A stretch of DNA of 64,000 nucleotides from a virus. The stretch spans positions 1-64,000 of the IMG/VR virus record IMGVR_UViG_3300009149_000020; one strand, 5' to 3'. Positions 4,077 to 57,775 of the stretch are shown in pieces. Below the pieces are notes generated by a model. That model was not told where the DNA came from. It searched no databases and saw only the letters and a program-made list of their open reading frames with translations. The translations under genes were made by a program, and so were the position numbers. Numbering within the stretch: position 1 is the first letter of the stretch; each line of letters begins with the position of its first letter.

Positions 4077-4895
4077 ATGTCTAAATTGGTGAAATTTAAA
4101 ACAGGTGTAACATCCTACGAAATAAACAAAAAGTCTGATCCAGCCTTGTCCATTCTTCATCATATTAGTACAGGTTGGAAGAATTATACTGGCGATAGTA
4201 CTACTTCTACGCTTGTTACAAAGTTTTATATAGCAATGGCTCCTACTCCTGATATAACTTTGTTAGACGAGCAAGCAGATCGCTACTTGTACTATCGTAG
4301 AGGTAAATGGTCTGATCCAGCGGCTGCACACGACCCAGAATCATTAATCAGACAGACCTACCATACGTTATTAGGAGTGGCTACGCAAAATGTTAAACTG
4401 GATGCTGACCAAACTATTAGATATTTATATTATGAAAAGACACATGATCCAGATGCCAAAAAAGATATTGACCAAACTATAAGGTATAGATACTATGAGC
4501 TTTATCCTACCGATCCTGCTGCTAAAGACGATAGTCTTATGCATGCAAGACTCAACTACTATAGAAGTACACTATGGAAAGATAGTGACTGGTGTAAGGA
4601 TAAGACATTGCAAGTAGTTATTTCTGGATTGTATGAATCTTTAGAATTGCAGGTAGACGAAGAGGTGCTCAATGCTTTATTTACAACAGTAGGAGGAATG
4701 GACTTATACAACTTTAGTTATCACACCTTTTTCGTGTTTAAGGATGCTATCATTATCGAAAGACTTGCACAGTTAGTAAAAGAAGTAACTCCCGGGTTAT
4801 TCGGAAGGATGCTTTTAAATATTAAAGATTCTAACAAGAGACAAAAGTTTATGGAGTTTATGAAAAATCTTGGAGTAGTGGAGGAGCCGTGTTAA
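4077..4895 (+). CDS. 23-aa RxxYY/WxD repeat protein with shared C-terminal motif
   Basis: DQTIRYLYY, DQTIRYRYY, WKDSDWCKD; ends TPGLFGRMLLNIKDSNKRQKFM. Confidence 0.75.
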   Translation: MSKLVKFKTGVTSYEINKKSDPALSILHHISTGWKNYTGDSTTSTLVTKFYIAMAPTPDITLLDEQADRYLYYRRGKWSDPAAAHDPESLIRQTYHTLLGVATQNVKLDADQTIRYLYYEKTHDPDAKKDIDQTIRYRYYELYPTDPAAKDDSLMHARLNYYRSTLWKDSDWCKDKTLQVVISGLYESLELQVDEEVLNALFTTVGGMDLYNFSYHTFFVFKDAIIIERLAQLVKEVTPGLFGRMLLNIKDSNKRQKFMEFMKNLGVVEEPC

Positions 4896-6565
4896 AATAT
4901 ATTAGTTCAAAGCAACTTACTCGAACTTGTTCTACAGTAAAAGTTGAATTAACTTTTCATAGCAAGAAAGATTCATTATCGGATGCATGGTATGAATTTC
5001 AAAAGAATAATTTTATCAAAAAGCGAGTAGACCTTGTAGCTACGAAATTGGATGTTCACTACGAGGACATAGTTATTAATGGAGAGGATGACGTTAATGA
5101 TGTAGTAACTGTTATTTTTCATGTGTATGACTTTCCATCCGGCTTTTATGTTGATACGGATAATGTGCTCATTAATAGTCGAAATATAATTACATCCATT
5201 TCATTTGTGGTAAAGGCACTTCTTCCTATTGAGGAAGGTGAGGAAGGTGGAGCAACTTTAAGTGATGCAGAAATAGATCAGAAAGCTCTTGGTTTGTTGT
5301 TGAGAGGTAAATCAGGAGAAACGCAGGCAATCACTTTATTTTGTTTAGGTAAAACAGTCAAGGATCTTCCTAAAGAAATGAGGTCAGACATTGATTATTG
5401 TCTTCCTAACAAGTACAAGGAAGTTGTCGGGAACTCTGCTAGCAATAGTTACGGTAAACAGTTAAGTGCTATTCGTGCTAAGTTTGTAGATGTTTTGGAT
5501 AAACGCACGTTGTGGGAAAAGGAGAAGAAAGAACCTAAAGACATTTTTGTTGAACCAGATTATTCAGCATCCTTACTTACTATATCTTTCTTGCTTACTA
5601 AAGATTCTTTATCCAAAAGTGAGCTAAGTTATCTAGGACAGATACTAAGTAAGTCCACAAAAGTAGACTACTATAGAGTCTTTATAGTGCATTCACAAAT
5701 ATTTAAAGTTATTGTTCAATATAGCGTGTATGAAGACCCTGACCTTTTAGCACAGTTTTTATGTTGTAAAGAAGTGTTTGATTACTGCATTAAACAAGGA
5801 CATGCTGGCCTTAATACAGCTGTTCTTGCACACCCTTCTCTTATGGCCAAGAAGACTAACATTTACAATGTTCTTGTTAGAAAATCTTGCTTTGTAGACT
5901 TAGACTACAGTACTTGTATTTCTATGTTAGAAGGCTTAATAACTGAGGAGACTTTTCTTGATACAGAAAGTGTAAAAAAAGTTTTTAGACTTTTTGCGCA
6001 GGTGATGTGGCCTAGTGAATATGAAGTAATATATCGTAAAGCACCTGAGTTACTGTTTATGTTCATTTGTGATAGAGTATCAAAAGGGGATTTTTCTTTT
6101 TGCAATGAGTTGACAGTTTCTCTTGTAGAAGATGCTTATGGTGCAGATCTTCACTCGCTTACTGATAGGAAGTCAAAGTTAATGACCCAGTCATTCCAAG
6201 AACAGGGTATGCTTTATCTAAGCTATCTTCTTGCAGCATGTCTTGACGATAGTAATCAAAAGCATATAGAAAATAATCAAGTTCTTACCGCATTGGGTAA
6301 CGTGCTTACTGATGCTACGAATTTGTACGATTGTTTTGCTATCTCTTGTGTTTTTGGGAAAATTGTACAAAACATGTTACACATCAGTGAACACTTTTTC
6401 CAGGCTTTAGTTTTAAGAAAACCTGAGTTACTGGAAGTTTATAAAACAACGGATGTAAGGGCTGACTTACGTGATAGAAGCTCGTGTGCAGATATTATAT
6501 TCAAGCTTGCTGAAAGAAAGAAGTTGGTAGCAGTAGAGACTTCAGAGGAGGGCAATTGTGCTTAA
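4889..6565 (+). CDS. large hypothetical protein
   Basis: 558-aa ORF, GTG start after GGAGGAG; no family recognised. Confidence 0.75.
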   Translation: MLKYISSKQLTRTCSTVKVELTFHSKKDSLSDAWYEFQKNNFIKKRVDLVATKLDVHYEDIVINGEDDVNDVVTVIFHVYDFPSGFYVDTDNVLINSRNIITSISFVVKALLPIEEGEEGGATLSDAEIDQKALGLLLRGKSGETQAITLFCLGKTVKDLPKEMRSDIDYCLPNKYKEVVGNSASNSYGKQLSAIRAKFVDVLDKRTLWEKEKKEPKDIFVEPDYSASLLTISFLLTKDSLSKSELSYLGQILSKSTKVDYYRVFIVHSQIFKVIVQYSVYEDPDLLAQFLCCKEVFDYCIKQGHAGLNTAVLAHPSLMAKKTNIYNVLVRKSCFVDLDYSTCISMLEGLITEETFLDTESVKKVFRLFAQVMWPSEYEVIYRKAPELLFMFICDRVSKGDFSFCNELTVSLVEDAYGADLHSLTDRKSKLMTQSFQEQGMLYLSYLLAACLDDSNQKHIENNQVLTALGNVLTDATNLYDCFAISCVFGKIVQNMLHISEHFFQALVLRKPELLEVYKTTDVRADLRDRSSCADIIFKLAERKKLVAVETSEEGNCA

Positions 6566-8015
6566 GATCAAAGGAATAATTCAAAACCCCGTAGAAGCTT
6601 GGTGGATTAACTTTATGAACGAATTATTGGAGTCTAAGCTTCTTTCCCCTAAAGTAGTATTTAATGAGATAAGTGTACCTATTGTAAAGCTTGAAATACT
6701 TAATAACATTATTCTAATCATAACTGTTCCAGAAACAGAAGGGATGGCCGATCTTTATTATCCATTGTTTGTTCTTTCCATGGAGGACGGAGGAGAATTA
6801 AAATCAGTTGAAATTTTAGGTAACTTTCCTCTTATGCGTAAAGGAGAAGATGCGCCTGCAGACTTTATGTTAGATACAAGACGTGACGTGTTTCTTGCTA
6901 CAGGGGCTACTATAGCACGTAGCCATGAAAACCGGAGTATGAAAAAGGGAGTATCGCTGAGCACGTTCCTTCTTGCAAAAGATGCAAAGCTTTCGGGTGC
7001 AGCAGAGGAGTTCTGTACCTATTTTGGCAATCAGGTAACTTATAGTGATAGACGTCATATATTTCCTGCTCTTCATGCAATAGCTCCTATACTTCTTGCA
7101 AGAAAAGATAAGGAAAATACGAGTAAACATTTAATAGCTTTCTGCCTAAGAGCTACTGAACAATTAAGTTACTATGCTCCTTTGGCAGATTACCAGTCGC
7201 ACGTATGGGAGTTTGTTTACTACTTATACAAGCAACTAGGCGAGCCTATTGAAATGTATCCATATTTAGTAGCACATCCTATGTTTAAGTCAATTATTGA
7301 AAAGAGATCGACAGAATTAGACTTCTTTTCTTACTGTGACAAGGCTTGGCGTCAGATTGAAATAGACTATCAGGAACATCTCTTTTTTGCAGACGGGTTG
7401 GAAAGCTTAACACCGTTTGTAAGTGAGTCGTGCAGGCTGTATCCTTTTAAGTTGTTCTGGGGAGAAGCACAGAGGTATAGCCTTGATAATAGACAAGATA
7501 TGGACAATAAGGTTTCTCCTACAGACGATTATCACACAATGTTGAGTATTTATGTAAACGAGTTACTTAAAGCAACCGTTACAGTTGAAAAGTTAGAATC
7601 ACTAGCGCCACTATATCCTTATATGCTTGACAAAAAGTTAGAAACACTGGCACCTTTTTCTTCCATGCTAGTTAAGTTATTCTTAGGCGAAGTAGACGAA
7701 TTAACAAATGAGGAGGTTGCTGAATTTTCTAGGATGGCAGGAGAGGGTACAACAATTGAAAGTCTTAAACCGAGTCAATTAATTGTTACAGGCTTATTCT
7801 CTCAGAATACAGAAAGGTTAGGTTTATTTCTTTTCAGAACAACGAATACTCCTTTAAAGAAAATGTTAACGTTGTTGATGAAGAGAAAACAAAACTATAC
7901 GAAGAAGTTAGTTGACTGCAGACAGCAAGTTATTAAACAAGTTGAAAAAGCAAAAGCAGCTCAACAAAAGAAAATAAGTGAGGTTTACTGCGAAAAAGAA
8001 GTAGCAAACGTTTAA
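6558..8015 (+). CDS. hypothetical protein with shared C-terminal motif
   Basis: 485-aa ORF; NTERLGLFLFRTTNTPLKKMLTLLM near the C-terminus. Confidence 0.75.
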   Translation: MLKIKGIIQNPVEAWWINFMNELLESKLLSPKVVFNEISVPIVKLEILNNIILIITVPETEGMADLYYPLFVLSMEDGGELKSVEILGNFPLMRKGEDAPADFMLDTRRDVFLATGATIARSHENRSMKKGVSLSTFLLAKDAKLSGAAEEFCTYFGNQVTYSDRRHIFPALHAIAPILLARKDKENTSKHLIAFCLRATEQLSYYAPLADYQSHVWEFVYYLYKQLGEPIEMYPYLVAHPMFKSIIEKRSTELDFFSYCDKAWRQIEIDYQEHLFFADGLESLTPFVSESCRLYPFKLFWGEAQRYSLDNRQDMDNKVSPTDDYHTMLSIYVNELLKATVTVEKLESLAPLYPYMLDKKLETLAPFSSMLVKLFLGEVDELTNEEVAEFSRMAGEGTTIESLKPSQLIVTGLFSQNTERLGLFLFRTTNTPLKKMLTLLMKRKQNYTKKLVDCRQQVIKQVEKAKAAQQKKISEVYCEKEVANV

Positions 8016-9592: not shown

Positions 9593-10450
9593 ATGGCTTA
9601 TGAAAAAAGTAACAGTCAATTAAGTACTCAGGCAGATGCGCTATCTCGGTTGTTGGGACGAAGTCAACCATGCGTAATGGAGGTAAATCACCTTCTAACA
9701 TCTAGTGAACAAAAATGGATACCTACAGCTTTATTATTTAAGACTATGTTCGATTCTGGTCTTAGTATAAATGAAGCGTTACTTAATGACATGAAAGCAG
9801 GCTGTACACTGGAACGTATGCTATATGCGTTAGCTACTAGTGATCCTATTTGTAAAAAAGACAAATCATTAAAAGTTAAATTCTGTTATCATTTGTCTAT
9901 TGATTTTGTTGATCCCGACGTTTTAAAAACTAAGAGTGTGGTAATTGAAAGGTTAGCCTTAAGAAGAAAACCTGGACTAAGAGATCAAGTTTCAATTTAT
10001 GCTTTAAGCGATGATCGTAGAAGGGCTTATTACAATGAGAAGGGCTGGGCTGAAGCTAAAATGGACCCTAACTACTCGTTTAGAAGATTGTACTATGACT
10101 CTGTAAAATGGAAGGATTACGATTGGTACTGTGATAGAGAAATGGATTTGATAAAAGAAGGCATAACGTTGTGCCCTTCTTTTGTAAATACGGAAGGTTT
10201 GCAAAGGTTTGCGCTTAAGTTAACTACTAATAAAACAGGCATGGAGAAACTATTTTATACACTTTATTGGGCTACCAAGCATTCTCAGGCACGTTGGCAA
10301 GAAATCAAACCGCAGTTTATCAAGTTTTTCTCATTGTTGTCCCCTGCGCAAAATACTGCAATAATGTTCAGTACAAAAAAAGAATACATAAGAGAGTTCT
10401 TTAAGGAAGTGCTTGTTAAGCAAGAAATGTCAGAAGGAGGCTTGAAATGA
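9593..10450 (+). CDS. RxxYY/WxD repeat protein with shared C-terminal motif (paralog of 10771)
   Basis: ERMLYALAT, VKFCY, RRLYYDSVKWKDYDWYCD; SPAQNTAIMFSTKKEYIREFF. Confidence 0.8.
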   Translation: MAYEKSNSQLSTQADALSRLLGRSQPCVMEVNHLLTSSEQKWIPTALLFKTMFDSGLSINEALLNDMKAGCTLERMLYALATSDPICKKDKSLKVKFCYHLSIDFVDPDVLKTKSVVIERLALRRKPGLRDQVSIYALSDDRRRAYYNEKGWAEAKMDPNYSFRRLYYDSVKWKDYDWYCDREMDLIKEGITLCPSFVNTEGLQRFALKLTTNKTGMEKLFYTLYWATKHSQARWQEIKPQFIKFFSLLSPAQNTAIMFSTKKEYIREFFKEVLVKQEMSEGGLK

Positions 10451-10770: not shown

Positions 10771-11673
10771 ATGAGTGCTTTCATAGTTGACCCTAATAAA
10801 AGTCCTATTGAGAATAAAGCGTTAGAGCTTGAAGGTTATTCTTCGGGAGCAGGCAATAGTTCTGCATTGACTTGTATAAATAATACCTTCAGCAATTCCT
10901 GGGCTCCTTTAGCCTTTTTTCTTAAATCCTTAGTGGACTGTGGCCTCACTATGCCTCCAGATATAGTTGCTACTTTGAAGACTTCTTCCCTTGAACTTGA
11001 AAGGATGCTTTATGTTTTATTGACTAAAGACATTGATATGAAGAAAGATCCTAAACTTTCTGTAAAGTTTTGTTATTACCTTTCTGGTGACTTTGAAGAT
11101 ATTGATGTATTAAAGGTACCTAGTATCCCTTTTCAAAGTGCTGTCCTTCAAGCAAAACCTGATATCTTATCAGGCATTCCTGTTGAACGTTGGTCTCAGG
11201 AAGAAAGACAGAAACACTATAACGCTAAAGGTTGGTCTTTAGCAAAGAATGATTCATTCTTTAAATTTCGAATTAATTACTATAGAGAGGACAGGTGGCA
11301 AGATTTTGATTGGTATGAAGACAAAGAAATGAATGTAGTTGTTCAAGGTATTATTAATTGTAAAGATTTTCAAAAGACTGAAGGCCTGACGAAGTTTGCT
11401 ACCAAACTTGCTACTAATAAAACAGGTATTACAAAACTGTTTAAAAAGCATAGATATAGACATCGTAGATGGGAAAACGGTAAATATGTTTGGAAGGAGG
11501 GCTGGTCGGATTATTGGGAACCACATAGACCCCATTACATTAAATTTTTCTCAATGTTTTCTACAGCACAGATAACTGCTCTAATGTTTCAATGTGATAA
11601 GGATTACGCAAGAGAATTCTTTGCAGATCTTTTAGTTTTAAGGAATCAGTCAGAAGGAGAAGCTAATGGTTAA
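10771..11673 (+). CDS. RxxYY/WxD repeat protein with shared C-terminal motif (paralog of 9593)
   Basis: ERMLYVLLT, RINYYREDRWQDFDWYED; STAQITALMFQCDKDYAREFF. Confidence 0.8.
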   Translation: MSAFIVDPNKSPIENKALELEGYSSGAGNSSALTCINNTFSNSWAPLAFFLKSLVDCGLTMPPDIVATLKTSSLELERMLYVLLTKDIDMKKDPKLSVKFCYYLSGDFEDIDVLKVPSIPFQSAVLQAKPDILSGIPVERWSQEERQKHYNAKGWSLAKNDSFFKFRINYYREDRWQDFDWYEDKEMNVVVQGIINCKDFQKTEGLTKFATKLATNKTGITKLFKKHRYRHRRWENGKYVWKEGWSDYWEPHRPHYIKFFSMFSTAQITALMFQCDKDYAREFFADLLVLRNQSEGEANG

Positions 11674-11986: not shown

Positions 11987-11995
11987 GAGGTTTAA

Positions 11996-13030
11996 ATGAG
12001 TTCAAGTATAATTAATAAAACTTTTAAAAAGCTACAACGATTATTGTCCTCTGACGAACAAGGTTGTAACTTTCCTGATCGTACGATACCTACTAATGTT
12101 GAACGAAAATGTTTTACTACACTAATGATGGCGTTAAAAGAAATGGGTATACTAAAAATGCCTGCAGAAGGTGATGAGCACTATGAAGCTTTCAAGGATA
12201 TGAAAGAGTCTTCTGTGGTCGAAAAGCTTATATACACTATTATAACCGAAGACCCTGACATGGCGCTTGTTACTAATCCTGACATTAGATACGTATATTA
12301 CATGGCTAAAGGTTTTCCAGAAGAATGCTTAAAGGATAAGGCATCTGCAATAAAGGAGAGTGCTATAAGAGCGCATCCTAAATATATGAATAATGTAAAA
12401 GTATTTTATTCGTTAACTCCTACAGTACGAAGGGAGCATTACATTAAAAATGGTTGGGCCTTAGCAAAGAATGATCCATTCAATGAACATAGAATTGGTT
12501 ATTATAAAAGTGTTAACTGGAAAGATAACGACTGGTATGCTGATAAAGATATTATGGTGATTCTTAATGGAATCCATCATAGCGATACATTTGTTAAAAT
12601 AGATAACATAACTAAAATAATTAAAAAACTTGCAGAAACTAAAACGGGGATTCCTACGTTAATTGCAGGATACCGTTGTGATTTTTCATATTTAAACAAT
12701 CGTTTGGAGAATGGTGCTATTTATCTTCAGAGACCTGACAAGTTTTTTGAAAGTATTTCCGGAGCGCTTCGTACCTCTTATCGTGACGACTATGTTTATT
12801 TAGAACAGGAGTATCACAGTCAAGCAAAGGACAGGTATTTTGATAAAGTTGCTACGTTTCTTTCACAAGCAGATGAAACTTTATTATCAGTACTACTATT
12901 GCAATCAAAGGTAGCAGAGTTTAGACAAATTATTAAGATTGCTCTTGATAAAAAACAAGGCATTGAGCCTGAGCCTGCAAAAGTGCGTGATCCTAAAGGG
13001 AAGCTTAAAAGAAAATTAAATTTTACATAA
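11996..13030 (+). CDS. RxxYY/WxD repeat protein with shared C-terminal motif
   Basis: GWALAKND, RIGYYKSVNWKDNDWYAD; DETLLSVLLLQSKVAEFRQII. Confidence 0.8.
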   Translation: MSSSIINKTFKKLQRLLSSDEQGCNFPDRTIPTNVERKCFTTLMMALKEMGILKMPAEGDEHYEAFKDMKESSVVEKLIYTIITEDPDMALVTNPDIRYVYYMAKGFPEECLKDKASAIKESAIRAHPKYMNNVKVFYSLTPTVRREHYIKNGWALAKNDPFNEHRIGYYKSVNWKDNDWYADKDIMVILNGIHHSDTFVKIDNITKIIKKLAETKTGIPTLIAGYRCDFSYLNNRLENGAIYLQRPDKFFESISGALRTSYRDDYVYLEQEYHSQAKDRYFDKVATFLSQADETLLSVLLLQSKVAEFRQIIKIALDKKQGIEPEPAKVRDPKGKLKRKLNFT

Positions 13031-13041
13031 GGAGGTTTATT

Positions 13042-17750: not shown

Positions 17751-17752
17751 TA

Positions 17753-17926: not shown

Positions 17927-17931
17927 TGAAG

Positions 17932-17969: not shown

Positions 17970-17999
17970 CAAAAAGAGGTTTTTAGTTAGGAGGATATT

Positions 18000-20154: not shown

Positions 20155-20267
20155 ACTATTCTTTTGGGAACTGTTTGTATGGTTGCCTTATCCTACAGGT
20201 GAGTATGTTCTTATGAAGTACTACAAAGTTGAAGAAGTTTGTGTTAATTTTACTAATAGGAGGAAGC

Positions 20268-48578: not shown

Positions 48579-48750
48579 ACTTAAATTTAGTGATGGTATT
48601 GAATTTGAGACTAGTGGTGCCTTTAGAGTAGAAACAAGACATGATGGTCATTATGTAGTTGGACGAGGTTTTTTAATACCTGTCATGTCAGAGGACGAAG
48701 GAAGAGAAAAGATTAAAGACTTAGTGAGGAAGGAGGTTAATAATGAGTAA
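48571..48750 (+). CDS. small hypothetical protein
   Basis: ATG after GGAGG. Confidence 0.6.
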   Translation: MGKLKFSDGIEFETSGAFRVETRHDGHYVVGRGFLIPVMSEDEGREKIKDLVRKEVNNE

Positions 48751-49858
48751 ATCTGCAGAAGTTCCAGCATTGGCTACATGCCCTCTTGTCCGGTTAGGCA
48801 GATTTACTGTAATGGAAACCGTTCATACGTTACGCACCGAAACGCAGTTTACAAGTATTGTTGCTAATCTGGCTAAGCTTAACATCTCTATTGATGACCC
48901 GTTTGTATGGACGTCATCACTTTATACTTTCTTCCATGAAGGGCCTCGTCCCGTGACAAATCTATTAACAGAAGCTGTATCGTCAGGAAATGCTAGTTTT
49001 ACACTATGGTTATTGAATCAAGGTATTAAGCCTAGCATTTATAATACCAAAGGAATTGCCGAGCCATCGCATCTCCTATACAAATTGTTACGTGTTGCTG
49101 GCAGAAGAAGGACTTCCTTAGCCGCACTTATACAAACGTATAAGTTTCTCCTTTCCAAATACAACTTTGATTTTCAAGCACTGGATGCTCCTTACGGTAA
49201 CAAAAAGACATTGCTTCACACAGTATGTGAAATCTCCACAACTCGAGAAAGAGAGCTTGAGGCTTTGATGCAGTTTTTAATTGAAGCAGGGGTTAACATT
49301 AATCAACAAGACTCCGGAGGAAATACCTCATTGCACATAGCAGTAAATACGTCATTGTCTGCTACACGCACTCTATTAAAGTTTTCCCCTGAATTAAACA
49401 TTTTTAATAACTCAGGACAAACACCTTTGTTAAAAGCATGTCAGCTCGGAAGTGACTTAATAGTACCTATACTGTTAGAGGCGGGTGCTGATGTTAATGC
49501 TAAACATAAAAAATCAGGAGCAACACCTTTATCTATCGCCATAGGTAAAAGAAATTGGGAGATGTTTAATTGTTGTATGAAGGCGGGTGCTAATAGTGCG
49601 CAAGCCTTCGAAGGACCGGAAAGTCCTTTAAAAGAAATGTTTAGAAAGACACATAAGAACACGCCTTATGGAGCGACATGTGCTTTTCTTGATTTGATTG
49701 CTGCCCTCCCTGTTGAAATGTTATCAGTAATGTGTTTTGCTAAAGATACTAAAACGAGTACATTAGCAAAAAAGATGCTTGTGTTAAAACAACGTTTTAC
49801 AGAGCACGACGCAGCAAAAGCTACAAAGGAGGATGTCGATGGATTGGCAACCACGTGA
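48743..49858 (+). CDS. ankyrin-repeat protein with shared C-terminal motif
   Basis: GNTSLHIA, GQTPLLKA, GATPLSIA; LPVEMLSVMCFAKDTKTSTLAKKML. Confidence 0.9.
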   Translation: MSKSAEVPALATCPLVRLGRFTVMETVHTLRTETQFTSIVANLAKLNISIDDPFVWTSSLYTFFHEGPRPVTNLLTEAVSSGNASFTLWLLNQGIKPSIYNTKGIAEPSHLLYKLLRVAGRRRTSLAALIQTYKFLLSKYNFDFQALDAPYGNKKTLLHTVCEISTTRERELEALMQFLIEAGVNINQQDSGGNTSLHIAVNTSLSATRTLLKFSPELNIFNNSGQTPLLKACQLGSDLIVPILLEAGADVNAKHKKSGATPLSIAIGKRNWEMFNCCMKAGANSAQAFEGPESPLKEMFRKTHKNTPYGATCAFLDLIAALPVEMLSVMCFAKDTKTSTLAKKMLVLKQRFTEHDAAKATKEDVDGLATT

Positions 49859-50963
49859 GAAGGACATAAAACTTGCATGTAAAGTAGAGTATACACATGG
49901 TGATGGAACAGTACAAACCAAGGATCTTGCTACCTTTATAAGTTGTGGAATACGTTCGTGCTTAGCACCTCAAGGACTTGAGAAGCTCCTCACTGTATTA
50001 AAAGCGCTTGATGTTACAGATGATACACTTAGTTTATGCTATGTTCAACACTATGGTTACATGCCGCTCTTTCAAGTTCTTATAAGGTCAAATGATCCTT
50101 TCACTATTGACTTTTTTGTAAGAAAGGAAACAATTAACCTTGATGATTATCCTGACCTTATTGAGGATATAGGTCGGAATTACACTAACTGGTATCATGA
50201 GCATACTCCTACTGCGCCTGTGCCTACGCTACTGTCCATATTTAAGTATGTAATAGATGAAAGAAAGCATATTAGCTTTGCTACTAAGAAAAGCAAACCA
50301 AAGAAGCTACTTGAGCGGTTGTTAAACTGTACTTATCGTTTACGATTAACGCGTGATGAATGGGTTGAATTATTTGACTATTTTGAAACAAAAGGTTATC
50401 CTTTTGATAAAAAGAATTCATCGGGAACAACACCACTCATGGTTGCATGCGAGGCTAGCAATATAGAGGCAGTCGCAGCACTTATCACAAAAGGAGCTAA
50501 TGTTAACAATGTTAATAGTTCAGGATTGACACCGTTGTTAAAAGCTGTAAAAGTAGATAATCTTACTACAGTTGGGATGCTTCTTGAAGCAGGCGCTGAC
50601 ATAGATAAGACACAAAAAAATTCAGGAAAGTCTGCTCTTGAACTAGCAGTGACTTCAGGCAATACTGAAATGGTTAAGTTGCTTAAACGTTCCGGTGCTA
50701 ACATGCTTGTAGCTTGTGAAGGAAAAAATAATCCGTTTTTTATTAAATCTGATACTTATGGAAAGATTGATTTTGATAAAATACTCAGTTTACTTGAACT
50801 TGCAGCAGACTCCCCTGAAGGGTTGTTAACCGCAATGCTTTTTGCTATTCCTGCTAAAAATAAGGAAGCACGCGATCTTCTTGAAAAGATTTTAAAGATT
50901 AAAAATAGCAACAAGCAAGCTAAGGAGGATACTAATGAGGAAGGCAGTGAGGTGGATGTGTGA
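49839..50963 (+). CDS. ankyrin-repeat protein with shared C-terminal motif
   Basis: GTTPLMVA, GLTPLLKA, GKSALELA; SPEGLLTAMLFAIPAKNKEARDLL. Confidence 0.9.
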   Translation: MDWQPREKDIKLACKVEYTHGDGTVQTKDLATFISCGIRSCLAPQGLEKLLTVLKALDVTDDTLSLCYVQHYGYMPLFQVLIRSNDPFTIDFFVRKETINLDDYPDLIEDIGRNYTNWYHEHTPTAPVPTLLSIFKYVIDERKHISFATKKSKPKKLLERLLNCTYRLRLTRDEWVELFDYFETKGYPFDKKNSSGTTPLMVACEASNIEAVAALITKGANVNNVNSSGLTPLLKAVKVDNLTTVGMLLEAGADIDKTQKNSGKSALELAVTSGNTEMVKLLKRSGANMLVACEGKNNPFFIKSDTYGKIDFDKILSLLELAADSPEGLLTAMLFAIPAKNKEARDLLEKILKIKNSNKQAKEDTNEEGSEVDV

Positions 50964-51543: not shown

Positions 51544-52183
51544 AAAAGATTTAAAAGAAGGATACATTTATAGAGTGAGAACAAGAAGCATGGGAATGGC
51601 GGCTGTATGGACAGGTGTATCCTTTTTAGGTGTTAGGGAGAAATTTGGAGCTATTTTCTTGTTCGAGGAATTTTGTTACGAGGACGGGCCTCCTTTTGGA
51701 ACAGTTACCTGTCATGAAGAAATCAGAAAATGTGAAGCTCCTTTACGTGTGGATGATAAATGGAACAAGGCTTTAATTAAAATTATTGAGGATGTACACG
51801 ATAGTCTTAAATCCAGAGATTATGTTAGAACACAGAATATGTTATATAGATGGACAGAAGATGCAATAGGATATGTTATGGATTCTAACGAAGCTTTGTG
51901 GGCTTATGGAGGTAGAGTTTTATCAAACCTTTTAGATACTGGTCCTGTTTGTATAGAAGATTATCCTGGCAAGGTAGCAGAGACTATTAAACAAACACGA
52001 GTATTTTATAACATGTCTGTTCAAGAGTTAGCAGAAAAAACTGGGTTAGCAGAAGCTGTTATCTCTGACATTGAAAACCCTAAAAAGGTTAATGATATCC
52101 ATGATATAGCTAAAGTCTGCGCAGAACTAAATCTCAATGTTCTTACAATAGGTATAGCGACTACAAAAGGAGAGGTAACATGA
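51530..52183 (+). CDS. hypothetical protein with C-terminal XRE HTH
   Basis: MSVQELAEKTGLAEAVISDIEN. Confidence 0.75.
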   Translation: MPTAKKDLKEGYIYRVRTRSMGMAAVWTGVSFLGVREKFGAIFLFEEFCYEDGPPFGTVTCHEEIRKCEAPLRVDDKWNKALIKIIEDVHDSLKSRDYVRTQNMLYRWTEDAIGYVMDSNEALWAYGGRVLSNLLDTGPVCIEDYPGKVAETIKQTRVFYNMSVQELAEKTGLAEAVISDIENPKKVNDIHDIAKVCAELNLNVLTIGIATTKGEVT

Positions 52184-53049
52184 GTAAAAAAGAAAAGCAA
52201 CCACAAGTAAAAGAATTAACAAAGGAACAGCAAGCATTGTTCTTTGATTTGCCTGCAAGTACAAAAAGTGCGTTTCTTAGAAGGATGATTTATAGTGCAC
52301 TTGGTAGAAAGGATATCATAGCACTTAAAGAACTTGCATCGTTAGCTGATACATTAGGGTCTAATGTTTTTACACACGCTTCCACTTTAAAAGAAATAGG
52401 ACTCAGAGCCTCTTATGAAACTATACGTTTTTTAATGGAGCATCCTTTTATACAAAAAAATATTAAGAAGGGTAACGCTTTTCCTTTATTAAAAGGAGTG
52501 TGTATTTCAAAGGATACTGAATCACTACATTATTTTGTTGATCACCCTGAACATCCTGTGACACAATTAATTAAGGAAGCAGGTGTAGGTAATCGTATGT
52601 TTGCAAGCTATAATGACGAGCACAGTCCTATAATTGTGGCAGCTAGAGAAAAAGATCTGCATCTTATCAAAAAAATTATTGCAATGTATCCTCCAAATTC
52701 TAGATTCTCTCTTGAAGAAAAAAGTACAATTGTTTTAGACTACTTACGTAGTGCACTCAGTCCTTTGTCAACTGGTCTCACTTCTAAAAAAAAGCAGCAA
52801 GTGAAATCGGAGTGTCTTCGTATTGTTGACGAGATACTTTCTACAATGCATATAGAATTTGAAGAAATTGTAGCCCCTAAATATCATCCACTTACACACT
52901 GGATGCTTCCTTTTGTAGGCGAATTTATTTTTAAAGAAAAGCATTTAGGTATGTTAGCAATGCGTAAAGATTGGCAAGGTGAGGTTGCTAGAGAGCTATT
53001 AGCTAAAAAAGAGGAGAAGACTAATGAAAATCAGAACAGGCTTTATTAG
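52180..53049 (+). CDS. helical hypothetical protein with shared C-terminal motif
   Basis: EIGLRASYETIRFL..LLKGV; KEKHLGMLAMRKDWQGEVARELL. Confidence 0.7.
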   Translation: MSKKEKQPQVKELTKEQQALFFDLPASTKSAFLRRMIYSALGRKDIIALKELASLADTLGSNVFTHASTLKEIGLRASYETIRFLMEHPFIQKNIKKGNAFPLLKGVCISKDTESLHYFVDHPEHPVTQLIKEAGVGNRMFASYNDEHSPIIVAAREKDLHLIKKIIAMYPPNSRFSLEEKSTIVLDYLRSALSPLSTGLTSKKKQQVKSECLRIVDEILSTMHIEFEEIVAPKYHPLTHWMLPFVGEFIFKEKHLGMLAMRKDWQGEVARELLAKKEEKTNENQNRLY

Positions 53050-53553: not shown

Positions 53554-53895
53554 ATGAGCAAGGATGATGTATGTACCCCACTAGCTGATTTAGATAGAGT
53601 TGAATTCGTAGATAAATTTAAAAAAGAACTATGCCATAAATGTAGAAGTAACGCAGTTGTTTATTTATTACGTGAAAGAGATAAGGGCTTTATTGCTGGT
53701 AAAGGAAAAGGAAAGCGAGAGGGTAAGCAAAAAATCCTCAATGCTATAGCGATCCCTCTAGCTGAGTTAATTCTTAAGCACGAAGGATTACTTGGACAGT
53801 TATTGCTTGATCCTGATATGACTGATGAAGTTAAATATTTTCTACTCGAACAAAAAAAGTTTTATGACAAGTATCTAAAAAATGTTGTCAAATAG
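53554..53895 (+). CDS. small protein consisting largely of the shared C-terminal motif
   Basis: HEGLLGQLLLDPDMTDEVKYFLL. Confidence 0.65.
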   Translation: MSKDDVCTPLADLDRVEFVDKFKKELCHKCRSNAVVYLLRERDKGFIAGKGKGKREGKQKILNAIAIPLAELILKHEGLLGQLLLDPDMTDEVKYFLLEQKKFYDKYLKNVVK

Positions 53896-54319: not shown

Positions 54320-55192
54320 ATGGCATATATTAGTTTCAAAAAACCTAGCACAAAAAAGCATCGACCTAATCTTAAAAGTAAAGATTTAAAAGTGCTTAAT
54401 CACGATACAATTAAACCTTGGATACAAAAGCATTTATATGCGTCTGCGTTAGGGTATGTTAAGAGTCGCTCGAGGGTGAAGGAAGAGTATCCTTCTAAAG
54501 CTACAGATTTGTTTATGCTTTTAAGAACGCTAAAGATTCCTATTAGAGGAAGACTTCTTTTTGCCATTGGAGAAAGAGGCACAGTACAGTTTATAAGCTG
54601 GTTTATTGATGAGATGCAAAACGGGAAACTTTCACACTCGTCAGCCTATCGTATATTAATGGGAATGGTTTACAGTGGAAGGCGTGATGAAATCGCATAC
54701 TTACTTAAAAAATATATACATCTTTTTAAACCTGTATTACACAAACCTTGGAATCAGCACGCTGATGGAGCTATGGGTAACTCCATTTTTTCAGCCCTAA
54801 CTAATGTAAATGGAGGATATCACCCTGATATTAGGGACATCCTAAAAGAAGCGTTTAAAGGTGAAAATATTCCCGAACTATTTCCTAAAAACACTTTCCT
54901 AGAGTTACTAACGTATCGGAAGGTTAAGTGTGCTTTAGTAATACTTGATGTATTAAGCATTAACCCCTTTGTAGACATACCCTCTAAATACTTTGAATTA
55001 GAAGGAAGAGGGAGTAACAACTTTGTAGGTTATGAAAAAGAACTAACTAATGTACTATGCCAGTATATAGTTAACAATTGTGATGAATCTGAAGCAAGTA
55101 TGTTATGTTTTCATAAAAATACAATAATAAAACAGGCTGCTTCTAACGCTCTACTACTTATCAGTAAAGGAGAAAATAATGGAGACGTTTAA
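54320..55192 (+). CDS. helical hypothetical protein with shared C-terminal motif
   Basis: AIGERGTVQFISWF..ILMGM; DESEASMLCFHKNTIIKQAA. Confidence 0.7.
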   Translation: MAYISFKKPSTKKHRPNLKSKDLKVLNHDTIKPWIQKHLYASALGYVKSRSRVKEEYPSKATDLFMLLRTLKIPIRGRLLFAIGERGTVQFISWFIDEMQNGKLSHSSAYRILMGMVYSGRRDEIAYLLKKYIHLFKPVLHKPWNQHADGAMGNSIFSALTNVNGGYHPDIRDILKEAFKGENIPELFPKNTFLELLTYRKVKCALVILDVLSINPFVDIPSKYFELEGRGSNNFVGYEKELTNVLCQYIVNNCDESEASMLCFHKNTIIKQAASNALLLISKGENNGDV

Positions 55193-55847
55193 AGTTCATA
55201 CTAGCTCTTATAAACTTGCTAAACTTGGAAATTTTTTATCATACTTCGATTGTCCTTTTCCTCCAAGAATAAGTGATGGCGCAACATTGTTAGGGGCCAT
55301 CCTCGAATTAATGAAAAGAGGGGCAACTGTTGAATTACCTGAAACATTTAAAACTTCTAAGGATTGGTGGGATAGAGCGGCTTATTGTTTAACAACAGGA
55401 AAGGAGCTTCCAAATGACACATCTAAGTTAGTGAGGTGCGCTTACTTAATGACTTGTCCTGAAGTAGAAGAAGCCAAGCATAATTCTTACGAAGTAATTA
55501 GAGCATTATACTATACAGCAAATAATTGGACAGACCCTGATTGGTTGTTGGATGACTCTGCTAAGATACGTAGACAAGGTGCTGTATTGAGCCCAAGCGT
55601 TGACTTTACCCAAGAGAGTGTAACAACAGCATATATCGCTTTACTTAATGATATTCTTCAAACTACACATGCTAAACGTTTAACTAGTAAAAATGACTTT
55701 AACATTTTACGAACATTACAAAAGCTGGAGAAAGCTATACTTTCGCGTTTACTACTTGAGAATGACAAAATTATACACCCACGTTTTAAAAAAGTTATTA
55801 AAGACATTCTTGACGAAGTACCAGTTGAAAAGATTTTTGGAGGGTAA
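55179..55847 (+). CDS. RxxYY/WxD repeat protein with shared C-terminal motif
   Basis: RALYYTANNWTDPDWLLD; EKAILSRLLLEND. Confidence 0.78.
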   Translation: METFKVHTSSYKLAKLGNFLSYFDCPFPPRISDGATLLGAILELMKRGATVELPETFKTSKDWWDRAAYCLTTGKELPNDTSKLVRCAYLMTCPEVEEAKHNSYEVIRALYYTANNWTDPDWLLDDSAKIRRQGAVLSPSVDFTQESVTTAYIALLNDILQTTHAKRLTSKNDFNILRTLQKLEKAILSRLLLENDKIIHPRFKKVIKDILDEVPVEKIFGG

Positions 55848-55851
55848 GCGT

Positions 55852-56676
55852 ATGGGATGGTTAACCGGAAAGGGTACCGAAGTAGAGAAAAAGGAAAAAA
55901 CAGAAGATGTGTTTGACTATAAGATTAAAAGAGATTCAGACAATTATGTTAACGTTAAACACTATAGGCAAAAGTATTCGCTTAATTATCGAGATAGGTT
56001 TGAGTATTATGCTAATGTAACGGACTGGAAGGACGAAGACGCAAGAGACGATCCTGCAGAAACAGTCAGACGTACTTACTATGATACGTGTGCTTGGAAG
56101 GATGCTTATGCAAAAAAAGATGAGTCTGTAACTATTAGATATACTTATTACAAAAATAATAAATGGAAGGACGCTGATGCAAAAAAAGATGAAAATGCAG
56201 ATATACGTATTTCCTACTATGATGCTCATAACTGGTCTGACTTTGATTGGTATACGGAGACAAACTTATCTGTTATAAACAAAGGTTTTAGCTCCTGCCA
56301 GTCATTCTTAATAAACGACGACTTTATACAATGCTTAGAACTAGTTCTTGTACAGCCACCACCTTATTCTCAGATCGCAGTATGGTTAGGCCCCTTTGAC
56401 CTATATTCTTTATTTAAACTAGTATCTAGGTTATCTGAAGCACTATGTTCTAGATTATTATTTGCTCAGTTGCAAGACGCAACTCGAGAGCTTATTGGAT
56501 TTTTTATGACAATTAAGAATGATGATAAAAAATTTGTACAGTTCTGGCAGATCATTATAGAAGCTAATGATGATCATCCATCTTTAAAGTGTACCTCACT
56601 AGCTACAGCTGTAGCAGAATGTACTGTCGCAGATTTAGAAGAGACGGAGGAAGTGATTGAAGAAACCGAAATATAG
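55852..56676 (+). CDS. 23-aa RxxYY/WxD repeat protein with shared C-terminal motif
   Basis: Four repeats (WKDEDARDD, WKDAYAKKD, WKDADAKKD, WSDFDWY); SEALCSRLLFAQLQDATRELI. Confidence 0.82.
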   Translation: MGWLTGKGTEVEKKEKTEDVFDYKIKRDSDNYVNVKHYRQKYSLNYRDRFEYYANVTDWKDEDARDDPAETVRRTYYDTCAWKDAYAKKDESVTIRYTYYKNNKWKDADAKKDENADIRISYYDAHNWSDFDWYTETNLSVINKGFSSCQSFLINDDFIQCLELVLVQPPPYSQIAVWLGPFDLYSLFKLVSRLSEALCSRLLFAQLQDATRELIGFFMTIKNDDKKFVQFWQIIIEANDDHPSLKCTSLATAVAECTVADLEETEEVIEETEI

Positions 56677-56914: not shown

Positions 56915-56923
56915 GGAGGTTAA

Positions 56924-57775
56924 ATGACCACTGAAGAAAACGCAAAGTTTTTGAAAACATTTATAGAGAAAATAGATTATACTGTCATAAATGGCGCCAC
57001 TTTACGCATAATGACATCTGGCTTACTAGCACTAAAAGCAGCAAGAAACCTTACGAAGGTTACGGTAAGATCTAATTGCCTAGTTTCACGTAACTGGCAG
57101 TACTCTACCATATTTATAAATATGTTTGATGCTATTACATGTGATTGTACTAAAGAGGATGAGCAAAAGTATTTAAAGAATTTAGACATAAGCGTAAGAC
57201 TTTGCTATTATGCAAATGCACAAAATATTAAATTGATGTTTGAGGATCATTGTGTAGATGTTAGGAGAATAGGGTATGAGTTAGCAATGTATCCAGAGGA
57301 GATGAAAAAAGATAGAGCGACTAGTATTCGCCGTGGGTATTATAAGTATCATCATATGGGATATCATTTAGATATGAAACATGATACGCATTATGAGGTA
57401 AAGAGACAATATTACAAACATAACGCTTATCAAGATATAGATTGGATCATCGATCCTCACAGTCAAATTTTTTGCAATGGTTTTAATAATGCGTTGGATG
57501 GTAATCGTTTGTCCGATGACCAAGTAGCAGCGCTTAAAGCATCATTAACTAAGCGGCATATAAAAAGATTTTTTGAAAGAATCATAAACCTTAATTATTA
57601 TAGTCAACGATTCACTAGTAATAATGTGGGTAAACAGCAACTTCTTAGTATCATGTATGATTTAGCGCCAACACTATTTGTGCGTACTGTATTTTCATTA
57701 AAGGACGCAGAAGCACGAAAGGCCTGGCAATCAATAGTTCATGAGAAAGAAAGGAGGAACGTATGCAAGAAGTAG
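56924..57775 (+). CDS. RxxYY repeat protein with shared C-terminal motif
   Basis: SVRLCYY, SIRRGYY, VKRQYY..YQDIDWIID; APTLFVRTVFSLKDAEARKAW. Confidence 0.78.
   Translation: MTTEENAKFLKTFIEKIDYTVINGATLRIMTSGLLALKAARNLTKVTVRSNCLVSRNWQYSTIFINMFDAITCDCTKEDEQKYLKNLDISVRLCYYANAQNIKLMFEDHCVDVRRIGYELAMYPEEMKKDRATSIRRGYYKYHHMGYHLDMKHDTHYEVKRQYYKHNAYQDIDWIIDPHSQIFCNGFNNALDGNRLSDDQVAALKASLTKRHIKRFFERIINLNYYSQRFTSNNVGKQQLLSIMYDLAPTLFVRTVFSLKDAEARKAWQSIVHEKERRNVCKK

What the first reader, a model, noticed from the sequence alone, without database searches (positions are those of the whole stretch)
4077..57775. Candidate new system: about 22 modular proteins with different repeat heads and one shared C-terminal two-helix docking motif
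Seen in sequence: the C-terminal ends of unrelated-looking proteins align by eye. 4077 TPGLFGRMLLNIKDSNKRQKFM; 6558 TERLGLFLFRTTNTPLKKML; 9593 SPAQNTAIMFSTKKEYIREFF; 10771 STAQITALMFQCDKDYAREFF; 11996 DETLLSVLLLQSKVAEFRQII; 13042 DSVVLAELLFHITINEHIKKIM; 13563 PSSLLSALLLKKGLPVSVKAII; 15142 PAEVIKLLLFKQIQTKAVRNIL; 20268 STAQLGIMLFKIKDKRTRYFF; 24287 GDATLKHMLFKKTLPEQYKELI; 26746 QKTILSSCLLDKQLATCKDYI; 40390 TQEQFTHFYLQKGGLWKEIA; 45551 PKGVFSALCFSKDPLTKEFA; 47324 PEAVLRRFCFSENKKLRAFC; 48743 PVEMLSVMCFAKDTKTSTLA; 49839 PEGLLTAMLFAIPAKNKEARDLL; 52180 KEKHLGMLAMRKDWQGEVA; 53554 HEGLLGQLLLDPDMTDEVKYFL; 54320 DESEASMLCFHKNTIIKQAA; 55179 EKAILSRLLLEND..PRFKKVI; 55852 SEALCSRLLFAQLQDATRELI; 56924 APTLFVRTVFSLKDAEARKAW. 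The heads fall into at least three classes: ankyrin, the 23-aa RxxYY/WxD solenoid, and other helical domains. Established knowledge: a variable repeat head plus a constant short helical tail is the design of F-box/SOCS-box and poxvirus ANK-PRANC substrate adaptors, and LPVEML/IPAEVI superficially recall the F-box LPxE start. Inference: this phage encodes a library of substrate adaptors or targeting-tagged effectors. They would bring many host or defence proteins to one hub (a host AAA+ protease, a phage scaffold or shell, or a capsid-loading machine).
Basis: partly seen in the sequence, partly recalled or inferred. Interest (0 to 1): 0.88.

Follow-up and report, generated by a model that had tools for sequence, protein, structure and literature searches.

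The report
Shared three-helix module on phage repeat proteins
An uncultured huge phage from the subsurface carries about 20 fast-evolving genes with different bodies (ankyrin repeats, LRV/HEAT-like repeats, others) that all contain the same undescribed ~45-residue three-helix module, which looks like a common handle on a library of binder proteins, though its function is untested.

Summary
A ~45-aa module (helix, then P/S-xx-hh-xx-hh-F/L, a loop, then a third helix) is shared by 10 LRV/HEAT-like solenoid proteins and 7 ankyrin proteins in the window, plus one gene outside it.

- **Statistics:** The profile of the LRV-type tails matches the profile of the ankyrin tails at hhalign 96% (E 3e-9). 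Controls reach at most 1.2%.
- **Relative:** A syntenic relative, G002, has at least 10 module proteins on still more kinds of head. A profile built from G002 finds members of the window.
- **Weaker members:** 53554 and 6558 gain moderate support. 40384, 52180 and 54320 gain none.
The module has three helices (plus one before it), not two. It is not always C-terminal. It is no better conserved than the heads: only the hydrophobic pattern is kept.
- **Known families:** It does not match F-box, PRANC, any other Pfam family or any PDB sequence.
- **Function:** Most likely it is a mobile protein-interaction handle on a diversified binder family. No hub is identified. A purely structural role is the main rival.
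- **Distribution:** It is lineage-restricted, absent next to the RNAP genes of 68 other huge-phage contigs.

The scan has noted constant-tail paralog families in other large phages before, but not this module.

The parts
4077..4895 (+). LRV/HEAT-like solenoid protein (272 aa) with module at nt 4764-4877
   Evidence: Family A by phmmer. The tail aligns with that of 56924. Leave-one-out score 10.8 bits, no decoy as high.
6558..8015 (+). 485-aa protein of unknown fold; probable module at nt 7782-7895, followed by a 39-aa extension
Evidence: No Pfam or PHROG family. Not significant with profiles from the window alone. Moderate support.
9593..10450 (+). LRV-like protein (285 aa) with module at nt 10316-10429
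   Evidence: Close paralog of 10771 (E 1e-62). Recruited by iteration from ankyrin tails.
10771..11673 (+). LRV-like protein (300 aa) with module at nt 11536-11649
   Evidence: Tail-only phmmer link to the ankyrin protein 20229, iE 1.2e-4. First LRV-type tail recruited from the ankyrin seed.
11996..13030 (+). LRV-like protein (344 aa), about 100-aa insert before the module at nt 12848-12961
   Evidence: Family A. Tail link to the ankyrin protein 26746, iE 3.7e-3. Alignment A3.
13042..13563 (+). Short LRV-like protein (173 aa), Pro/Gly/Thr-rich linker, module at nt 13435-13548
   Evidence: Tail link to 78636, iE 5.5e-4. Gibbs register.
13563..14582 (+). LRV-like protein (339 aa) with module at nt 14412-14525
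   Evidence: The G002-derived profile scores 11.9 bits, no decoy as high. Leave-one-out score 10.0 bits. ESM Atlas structure neighbours are HEAT/PBS-lyase-like.
15142..15927 (+). LRV-like protein (261 aa) with module at nt 15751-15864; AF2 model me8a2cf225e85
20229..21254 (+). Diverged ankyrin protein (341 aa, or 328 aa from the ATG at 20268) with module at nt 21075-21188
   Evidence: Ank_2 E 2e-4, below the curated cut-off. The profile of LRV-type tails scores 21.5 bits, iE 1e-6.
24287..25009 (+). Ankyrin protein (240 aa) with module at nt 24872-24985
   Evidence: Ank_2 34.1 bits. The G002-derived profile scores 20.7 bits, iE 1.8e-6.
26746..27975 (+). Weakly ankyrin-like protein (409 aa) with module at nt 27820-27933
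   Evidence: Ank_4 E 0.005, below the cut-off. Tail link to 11996, iE 3.7e-3. The Gibbs sampler placed it in another register. Weakest of the 17 strongly supported members.
40384..41283 (+).
   Evidence: No hit in the leave-one-out test. hhalign rank 72 of 95. Absent from the A5 hits.
45551..46624 (+). Ankyrin protein (357 aa), directly after RtcB, with module at nt 46496-46609
   Evidence: Ank_2 34.9 bits. Leave-one-out score 18.0 bits, iE 1.5e-5. G002 also has an ankyrin-plus-module gene directly after RtcB.
47324..48151 (+). Ankyrin protein (275 aa) with module at nt 47984-48097
   Evidence: Ank_2 48 bits. Tail links to 45551 and 48743.
48743..49858 (+). Ankyrin protein (371 aa) with module at nt 49685-49798; AF2 model m61b6e0739c6a
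   Evidence: Ank_2 91.8 bits. Helices at 295-303, 308-321, 324-330 and 336-369, with pLDDT 82-95 over residues 311-350.
49833..50963 (+). Ankyrin protein (376 aa) with module at nt 50790-50903
   Evidence: Ank_2 67.4 bits. The profile of LRV-type tails scores 19.9 bits, iE 3e-6.
52180..53049 (+).
   Evidence: No hit. hhalign rank 25 of 95, at another position. The Gibbs sampler chose another register.
53554..53895 (+). Small protein (113 aa) without a solenoid; probable module at nt 53755-53868
Evidence: The G002-derived profile scores 10.0 bits, iE 0.004, no decoy as high.
54320..55192 (+).
   Evidence: Its best hhalign match lies at residues 65-100, not at the C-terminus. Scores 0.4-2.5 bits.
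55179..55847 (+). LRV-like protein (222 aa) with module at nt 55704-55817
   Evidence: Tail link to 78636, iE 3.3e-3. The G002-derived profile scores 7.7 bits, no decoy as high.
55852..56676 (+). LRV-like protein (274 aa); module at nt 56410-56523, followed by 50 more residues with an acidic end
   Evidence: Recruited in the first iteration from ankyrin tails. Shows that the module need not be terminal.
56924..57775 (+). LRV-like protein (283 aa) with module at nt 57641-57754
   Evidence: Full-length alignments to 4077 and 9593 run through the tail. Tail link to 4077, iE 1.3e-3.

Best explanation
The window is the early/replication part of an uncultured huge phage (82.8-kb fragment, CheckV 36% complete). 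It has expanded a family of binder-type proteins.

Each protein has a variable head. The heads are an ankyrin solenoid, a 21-23-aa LRV/HEAT-like solenoid or, more rarely, another fold. Each also carries one copy of an undescribed, autonomous module of about 45 residues. The module is a helix with hh..hh..h, then a P/S cap and a second helix xx-hh-xx-hh-F/L, then a 4-5-residue loop (often K-D), then a third amphipathic helix that starts with R/K.

Shown:
- The modules on the two solenoid families are homologous.
- The module moves between unrelated heads, and between C-terminal and N-proximal positions, in two related phages.
- It is absent from six ankyrin-only proteins of the same genome.

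Inferred:
- The heads bind different host or phage proteins.
- The module is a common protein-protein handle. It gives all of them one shared contact with a single partner, such as a conserved phage core component (for example the phage's own multisubunit RNA polymerase, whose genes lie next to module genes in all three related contigs) or a host machine.
- The family acts early in infection.
For: Homology across heads:
- HMM cross-hits of 20-21 bits against a decoy maximum of 8.7.
- Iterative recruitment across the two families.
- hhalign 96% (E 3e-9) with anchored alignments and 88% (E 3e-6) without anchors; controls at most 1.2%.

Same helix succession: the two AF2 models give H0-H1-H2-H3 of similar lengths and spacing, with pLDDT 78-95.

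Replication in another genome:
- The window-trained profile finds six G002 proteins above all 2340 decoys.
- Iteration in G002 gives 10 members. They comprise 2 LRV-like proteins, 1 ankyrin protein after RtcB, one 405-aa helical protein, 3 small proteins and 3 Ser-run-leader proteins with the module at about residues 12-75.
- The G002 profile matches the window profile at hhalign 93.7%, E 2e-7, and hits 24287, 13563, 53554 and 55179.

Autonomy of the module:
- It occurs on small proteins with no recognised solenoid (53554; G002 57051, 48422, 81170).
- The linker between solenoid and module varies from about 15 to 120 aa.
- 50 to about 90 residues follow it in 55852 and P0023.
- Six ankyrin-only proteins and many repeat-only relatives lack it.
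- It is not a degenerate LRV repeat (hhalign 0.4%).

Fast evolution: the syntenic pair 78636 and P0020 is 29% identical, with the alignment running through the module. The RNAP beta subunit of the same two phages is 60% identical.
Against: - No partner has been identified, and no interaction could be computed here.
- The module is no better conserved than the heads. Tail identity is 22-28%, against heads at 22-28% and a random baseline of 21%.
- What is conserved is almost only the hydrophobic pattern. A pure fold constraint would produce the same picture. One shared docking surface would be expected to keep some polar positions.
- Structure alignments of both models to continuous solenoids extend into the module (1n11: model 72-353; 1lrv: model 14-238). 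AF2 therefore probably stacks it on the last repeat like a cap.
- The adjacency to the RNAP genes is loose. In G000 and G002, which hold many module genes, it could be chance.
Confidence: 0.42

Rival explanations
1. Structural terminator only. The module is a fold-level closing unit that stabilises the C-terminal end of helical proteins. It spread by gene fusion and duplication, and it has no partner of its own. All specificity and function lie in the heads.
For: - Only the hydrophobic pattern is conserved. Identity is near the random baseline.
- Alignments to continuous ankyrin and LRV solenoids run through the module in both AF2 models.
- The Atlas model of the ankyrin tail has an LRV-family cluster among its structural neighbours (TM 0.48).
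- In outside relatives the LRV-like repeats, the W-x-D-x-x-W cap and a helical C-terminus occur together as one architecture.
Against: - Six ankyrin-only proteins of this genome, and many repeat-only relatives, do without it.
- It sits on small proteins without a solenoid, and near the N-terminus of Ser-run-leader proteins in G002.
- Long variable linkers, some probably disordered, separate it from the solenoid in 13042, 11996, 9593 and 10771.
- Solenoid caps normally derive from their own repeat, but this module is unrelated to the LRV unit (0.4%) and is shared with ankyrin proteins.
Confidence: 0.27
2. Self-association domain. The module makes family members form homo- or hetero-oligomers, which gives multivalent binders or mixed assemblies rather than docking on a separate hub.
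For: - Three amphipathic helices with a long third helix of 21-34 residues in the models are typical of small oligomerisation domains.
- Many co-located paralogs carrying the same module would be able to pair.
Against: No evidence for or against oligomers could be obtained. The divergence of the module among paralogs would make general hetero-pairing difficult.
Confidence: 0.13
3. Virion-loading or ejection tag. The module targets the proteins into the capsid, so that they are injected with the DNA as pre-made anti-host proteins. This would be analogous to the capsid-targeting sequence of the T4 internal proteins.
For: The design is a shared short module on many otherwise different accessory proteins of a very large phage. 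Basis: analogy only.
Against: - The module is a folded domain whose position varies (C-terminal, internal or N-proximal). It is not a terminal peptide.
- The genes lie among replication and transcription genes, not structural genes.
- No protease site or processing motif is conserved beside it.
Confidence: 0.06
4. F-box/PRANC-like domain that recruits a eukaryotic Skp1-cullin ligase, as in poxvirus and Wolbachia-phage ankyrin-PRANC proteins.
For: - Ankyrin head plus a short helical C-terminal domain.
- An LPxE-like start in a few members (48743, 15142).
- Poxvirus ankyrin proteins appear among the BFVD matches, which the ankyrin repeats alone explain.
Against: - PRANC and F-box-like HMMs find nothing at E<=10. 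Pfam and PDB profile searches are negative.
- The structural match spans all three module helices, which would put the LPxE-like stretch (in the second helix) outside the first F-box helix. This rests on my recollection of the F-box register.
- The genome is a tailed-phage-type genome with RecA, a gp32-type SSB, a sigma-4/alpha-CTD protein and a bacterial-type RNAP, from a subsurface metagenome.
- The same module sits on non-ankyrin heads.
Confidence: 0.02
5. Chance resemblance of generic amphipathic C-terminal helices picked out by eye.
For: - Three of the 22 listed proteins (40384, 52180, 54320) score no better than background.
- In 16 outside relatives an unbiased Gibbs search of the region after the cap found nothing better than in shuffled sequences.
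- Tail identity is near the random baseline.
Against: For the core set, every control was exceeded by a wide margin:
- shuffled decoys;
- C-termini of non-family proteins;
- N-terminal and ankyrin-only profiles;
- replication in a second genome.
Confidence: 0.03

Closest known systems
Poxvirus ankyrin/PRANC (F-box-like) proteins and the ankyrin/PRANC genes of the eukaryotic association module of Wolbachia phage WO (PMC3185573, PMC5062602)
   Same: A multigene family of a large virus. Variable ankyrin-repeat head plus a short helical domain of about 45 residues after it. Members are clustered and fast-evolving.
   Different: - No sequence relation to PRANC or F-box.
- The host is presumably a subsurface bacterium without an SCF ligase.
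- The module also sits on LRV-like and other heads and can be N-proximal.
- The partner is unknown.
Leucine-rich repeat variant (LRV) protein of Azotobacter vinelandii (PDB 1LRV) and HEAT-like/PBS-lyase repeats
   Different: - No Pfam LRV or HEAT hit for the window proteins.
- A different repeat signature: D-x-D-A-K-x-D...I-R-x-x-Y-Y.
- A specific W-x-D-x-x-W cap.
- The rmsd to 1lrv is large (13.6 A).
Bacterial protease adaptors with a body and a separate docking tail (SspB with its C-terminal ClpX-binding peptide; MecA for ClpC). From general knowledge, not tested here.
   Same: Logic of a substrate-binding body joined by a linker to a constant element that docks on one machine.
   Different: Those docking elements are short peptides or known domains. 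There is one adaptor gene per cell, not about 20. No sequence or fold relation was tested or seen.
Lineage-specific paralog families with a constant terminal element in other large phages, noted earlier in this scan (e1-1958859, e1-5954805)
   Same: Many diverged early-region paralogs of a large phage share one short conserved element that is read as a common handle.
   Different: Different phages and unrelated sequences. Here the shared element is a mobile folded domain that joins two well-known repeat folds. It is not the end of a single paralog family.

Membership tests
F-box / F-box-like (PF00646, PF12937) | Sequence match to the family profile | tested here: not met
   PF12937 finds nothing in six frames of the genome at E<=10. 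Pfam scans of the 20 full proteins at E<=0.1 and of the 22 tails at E<=10 list no F-box family.
F-box / F-box-like (PF00646, PF12937) | Three-helix F-box fold | tested here: inconclusive
F-box / F-box-like (PF00646, PF12937) | Binding to Skp1 | not testable with these tools
   No complex prediction is available. The source is a subsurface metagenome and the genome is of phage type.
PRANC (PF09372) | Sequence match to the family profile at the C-terminus of ankyrin proteins | tested here: not met
   No match in the genome at E<=10. None in the Pfam scans.
Ankyrin repeat (PF00023, PF12796) for the heads of group B | Profile match above the curated cut-off, and an ankyrin solenoid fold | tested here: met
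   - Above the Ank_2 cut-off: 24287, 45551, 47324, 48743, 49833.
- Below the cut-off: 20229 and 26746.
LRV / HEAT-like repeats (PF01816, PF13646) for the heads of group A | Profile match to LRV or HEAT families | tested here: not met
   No Pfam family at E<=0.1 for any of the window's family-A proteins.
LRV / HEAT-like repeats (PF01816, PF13646) for the heads of group A | Short-period right-handed alpha/3-10 solenoid fold | tested here: inconclusive
Lineage-specific multigene family of a large DNA virus | Many diverged paralogs, clustered, restricted to a narrow lineage, with a variable part and a shared part | tested here: met
   - 18 strongly supported members in G000, 17 of them in the window in three clusters (4-16 kb, 20-28 kb, 45-58 kb) and one, 78636, outside it; two further moderately supported members.
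- At least 10 members in G002 and 1-2 in G001.
- None beside the RNAP genes of 68 other huge-phage contigs.
- Word-index searches of 5.8 billion proteins return only self hits.

The most novel reading that the evidence does not exclude
A phage counterpart of the F-box/PRANC principle. One small three-helix domain docks about 20 different repeat-protein binders (ankyrin, LRV-like, others) onto a single hub, such as the phage's own multisubunit RNA polymerase or a host AAA+ machine. The phage would then redirect or destroy many host or defence proteins through one mechanism, and the module would be a new, transferable docking domain.
Probability: 0.2. Interest if true: 0.85.

Novelty: new variant of a known kind. 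Interest (0 to 1): 0.6.

Why it matters
Huge phages carry many genes of unknown function. Lineage-specific repeat-protein families are good candidates for tools of host takeover or counter-defence.

Two classical binder scaffolds, and several other heads, have picked up the same undescribed mini-domain here. That is the signature of a modular system, and it gives a concrete handle for experiments: find what the 45-residue module binds, and the function of about 20 genes per phage becomes accessible at once.

If it is a docking domain, it would be the first phage analogue of the variable-head, constant-adaptor design known from poxvirus ankyrin/PRANC proteins and from cellular F-box and SOCS-box proteins. 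It would also be a new small fusion tag. If it is only a structural closing unit, the finding is still a new domain family and a clear case of domain shuffling between repeat families inside a phage lineage.

Tried and rejected
Contigs of the outside relatives could therefore not be fetched that way.

**Searches for relatives that found little**
- Single-protein scans of viral contigs with 13563 and P0019 found nothing.
- Alignments A3 and A4 had no stretch conserved enough for a pattern scan.
- Word-index searches with 13563 and with the tail alignment A1 returned only this genome's own proteins.
- A single-protein scan with the RNAP beta subunit found nothing.
- In the RNAP-beta neighbourhoods fetched with alignment A6 (71 loci, 1.37 Mb), only G002 and G001 hold family A or the module.

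**Comparisons with known families and structures**
- Profiles of the tails (A1, A5) against PDB sequences: nothing below E 0.1.
- Pfam on the tails: no recurring family.
- PHROGs on ten proteins of the window, six of them listed or family-A proteins: nothing useful.
- PRANC and F-box-like HMMs on the genome: nothing.
- ESM Atlas on the ankyrin tail: feature scores of at most 0.83, which is the noise range, and generic helical structure neighbours.
- BFVD: only ankyrin matches for 48743, and nothing below E 0.17 for 15142.

**Ideas tested and dropped**
- The tail as a degenerate LRV repeat: hhalign 0.4%.
- Recent DNA exchange between tails: no DNA similarity beyond chance 9-17-mers.
- A tail more conserved than the head: not so.
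- An unbiased Gibbs search in 16 outside relatives did no better than shuffled sequences. My by-eye matches there are unproven, except P0032, P0033, P0023, P0026 and P0045, which HMMs support.
- The ankyrin proteins in L002, upstream of PolA, look module-like by eye but are not significant.

**Other**
- No RNA holder is listed among the public runs.
- A paper search for the sample id and for phage ankyrin literature gave only the PRANC comparators.

Full report
**Setting.** The window is the first 64 kb of a single 82,826-bp virus record. It is classed as linear, with a CheckV completeness of 36%. GC content is 36%, and essentially all genes are on the + strand.

The record encodes:
- a family-A DNA polymerase fused to a UDG domain, a gp32-type SSB, RtcB, a radical-SAM/SPASM enzyme, an S58 peptidase, and a protein with sigma-70 region 4 and RNAP alpha-CTD domains;
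- beyond the window, RecA, full-length RNAP beta' and beta subunits, and 21 tRNA genes.

No structural genes were seen. The DNA comes from a subsurface metagenome. It is a fragment of an uncultured huge phage.

**The observation.** All-against-all phmmer shows two expanded families.
- Family A has ten members in the window (4077, 9593, 10771, 11996, 13042, 13563, 15142, 55179, 55852, 56924) and one outside it (78636). Its short repeat has the signature D-x-D-A-K-x-D...I-R-x-x-Y-Y, closed by a W-x-D-x-x-W cap.
- Family B is ankyrin. Seven members bear the tail (20229, 24287, 26746, 45551, 47324, 48743, 49833). Six short ankyrin-only proteins lack it (453, 866, 1165, 25899, 39481, 40020).
- Pfam confirms ankyrin above the curated cut-off for five of the seven. 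It finds nothing for family A or for the five remaining listed proteins.

**Is the shared tail more than chance?** Yes for the core set.
- A profile built only from family-A tails hits the ankyrin tails of 20229 (21.5 bits) and 49833 (19.9 bits) at the right place. The best of 2440 shuffled decoys scores 8.7.
- Iteration from four ankyrin tails recruits the family-A tails 10771, 55852, 9593 and 15142.
- Tail-only all-against-all phmmer gives cross-family links: 10771-20229 at 1.2e-4, 20229-15142 at 3.6e-4, and 26746-11996 at 3.7e-3.
- Profile-profile comparison of the two sets gives 96.1%, E 2.9e-9.
N-terminal regions and the C-termini of ankyrin-only proteins give at most 1.2%.
Its log-likelihood is 489, against 438-448 for shuffled copies and 432-442 for C-termini of non-listed proteins.
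- There is no DNA-level similarity between the tail-coding segments. The relation is therefore old and lies at the protein level.

**Anatomy of the module.**
- Column counts over 17 members show a strict hydrophobic pattern at positions -17, -16, -14, -13 and -10 (first helix).
- A P/S/D residue sits at -9.
- Hydrophobic residues follow at -6, -5, -2, -1 and 0 (second helix, ending in F/L).
- A short loop comes next, often K-D, and then a third amphipathic helix.
- What follows the third helix varies from 4 to 50 residues and from net charge -10 to +5.

AlphaFold models were made of one ankyrin member (48743, pLDDT 73.8) and one family-A member (15142, pLDDT 80.9). They give the same succession of four helices:
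- 295-303, 308-321, 324-330 and 336-369 in 48743;
- 184-195, 201-210, 213-221 and 227-247 in 15142.

Confidence over the module is 78-95. The unit therefore has three helices with a fourth in front, not two.

Its mean pairwise identity is 22-28%, near the 21% baseline against random 38-mers. It is no higher than that of the heads. It is not a degenerate copy of the family-A repeat (hhalign 0.4%).

**The heads.**
- The ESM Atlas structure neighbours of 13563 are HEAT/PBS-lyase-like.

**Relatives.** A profile of family A searched against 1.84 billion representatives found 65 proteins, 48 of them not from this genome.
- Many consist of repeats only, or of another N-terminal domain (PcfJ-like in P0021) plus repeats, without cap or tail.
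- Sixteen have the cap followed by at least 45 more residues, mostly helical-looking.
- In those, HMMs support the module in P0032, P0033, P0023, P0026 and P0045. An unbiased motif search did no better than shuffled sequences.

A degenerate DNA pattern for the cap led to contig IMGVR_UViG_3300009149_000019 (G002: 84 kb, GC 42%, 33% complete). G002 is syntenic with this genome: radical SAM, metallophosphatase, PolA, SSB, RecA, RNAP beta' and beta (1363 and 1460 bits), and RtcB followed by an ankyrin gene.
- The window-trained module profile hits six G002 proteins above all 2340 decoys.
- Iteration within G002 gives ten members on very different heads:
  - two LRV-like proteins;
  - the ankyrin protein after RtcB;
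  - a 405-aa helical protein;
  - three small proteins of 110-131 aa;
  - three proteins that begin with the Ser-run leader MKxRxGFxxNSSS, where the module follows at about residues 12-75.
- The G002 profile matches the window profile at 93.7%, E 1.9e-7. It hits 24287 (20.7 bits), 13563, 53554 (10.0 bits) and 55179 above all decoys.
- 40384, 52180 and 54320 never rise above background.
- The syntenic pair 78636 and P0020 aligns at 29% identity through repeats, cap and module. RNAP beta is 60% identical between the same two phages. The family therefore evolves fast.

A more distant relative, G001 (73 kb), has one or two members, located 3-5 kb from its RNAP genes. The neighbourhoods of RNAP beta in 68 other huge-phage contigs have none.

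**What it is not.**
- No Pfam family matches the tails.
- PRANC and F-box-like profiles find nothing in the genome even at E<=10.
- Profile searches of PDB sequences find nothing.

**How it most likely works.** These points are shown:
- the module is homologous across heads;
- it is mobile, being found on at least four or five kinds of head and at C-terminal, internal and N-proximal positions;
- it is optional, since ankyrin-only and repeat-only proteins exist;
- it is replicated in a second genome.

These features fit an autonomous domain with a role of its own better than a mere closing unit of one solenoid type. I therefore favour a common protein-protein handle on a diversified set of binder heads that act during the early phase (confidence about 0.4). 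All of that is inference.

The partner is unknown. Module genes lie directly downstream of the RNAP beta gene in G000 and G002 and near the RNAP genes in G001. That makes the phage polymerase one candidate, but this is weak.

Two observations count against a single docking surface. Conservation is low and purely hydrophobic. Structure alignments to continuous solenoids run into the module, which suggests that AF2 packs it on the last repeat. The structural-terminator reading is therefore a serious rival (about 0.27). Self-association (0.13), a virion-loading tag (0.06) and an F-box-like function (0.02) follow.

**Novelty.** I found no description of this module, or of this combination, in Pfam, PHROGs, PDB or the searchable literature. 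The design resembles the poxvirus and phage-WO ankyrin/PRANC families (PMC3185573, PMC5062602) without being related to them. I rate it a new variant of a known kind: a lineage-specific multigene family of a large virus with variable heads and a shared small domain.

Noticed in passing
L003:7994-14075 (genome 71994-78075, outside the window) and window 29569-30843: The phage encodes full-length multisubunit RNAP beta' (968 aa) and beta (1052 aa). It also encodes a 424-aa protein that combines a sigma-70 region 4-like stretch with two RNAP alpha-CTD-like domains. Relatives of the beta subunit (24-34% identity) occur in about 70 other large viral contigs.
   Followed up: partly
window 23346-24287 and 63052-63978: ORF 23346 has a weak family-A repeat match near its N-terminus. 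It ends in a Cys-rich tail homologous to the C-terminus of the gp32-type SSB (phmmer E 2.7e-6). This is a second example of tail sharing between unrelated bodies in this genome.
   Followed up: partly
window 2709-3098, 3519-4067, 53024-53539; G002 L071:14529-15689: Proteins that start with MKxRxGF(V/I)xNSSS lie next to the radical-SAM/SPASM gene. In the relative G002, three paralogs of this family carry the three-helix module immediately after the Ser run. In the window's own copies the module is not significant (53024 scores -1.5 bits).
   Followed up: partly
G002 contig positions 79943-80569 (L071:19943-20000 plus L072:1-569) and about 48757-49269 (L070:8757-9269): The family-A gene at 79943-80569 is split by one in-frame TAG. 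Read through, it gives a 213-aa protein with repeats, cap and module. A second match spans one TAG and one TAA. These may be pseudogenes, neighbouring genes or stop-codon recoding. Not examined.
   Followed up: no
window 12962-13027, 14526-14579, 15865-15924: Three family-A proteins (11996, 13563, 15142) end in a similar K-x-x-N-F motif within a charged extension after the module. It may be chance.
   Followed up: no
L002:1313-2451: In a relative whose PolA is 50% identical, two small ankyrin proteins lie just upstream of the metallophosphatase-PolA-SSB-RecA block. This is the same place as the ankyrin and LRV cluster of the window. Their C-termini look module-like by eye but are not significant.
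   Followed up: partly
window 59965-62409: The DNA polymerase is a fusion of UDG-superfamily, 3'-5' exonuclease and PolA domains. The nearest annotated phage polymerases are only about 30% identical.
   Followed up: no
genome 67275-69197 (L003:3275-5197), residues 125-166: The SMC/SbcC-like 640-aa protein gives a borderline hit to the module profile (5.8-6.2 bits; 0 of 3750 and 2 of 2440 decoys as high). Probably a coiled-coil artefact.
   Followed up: no
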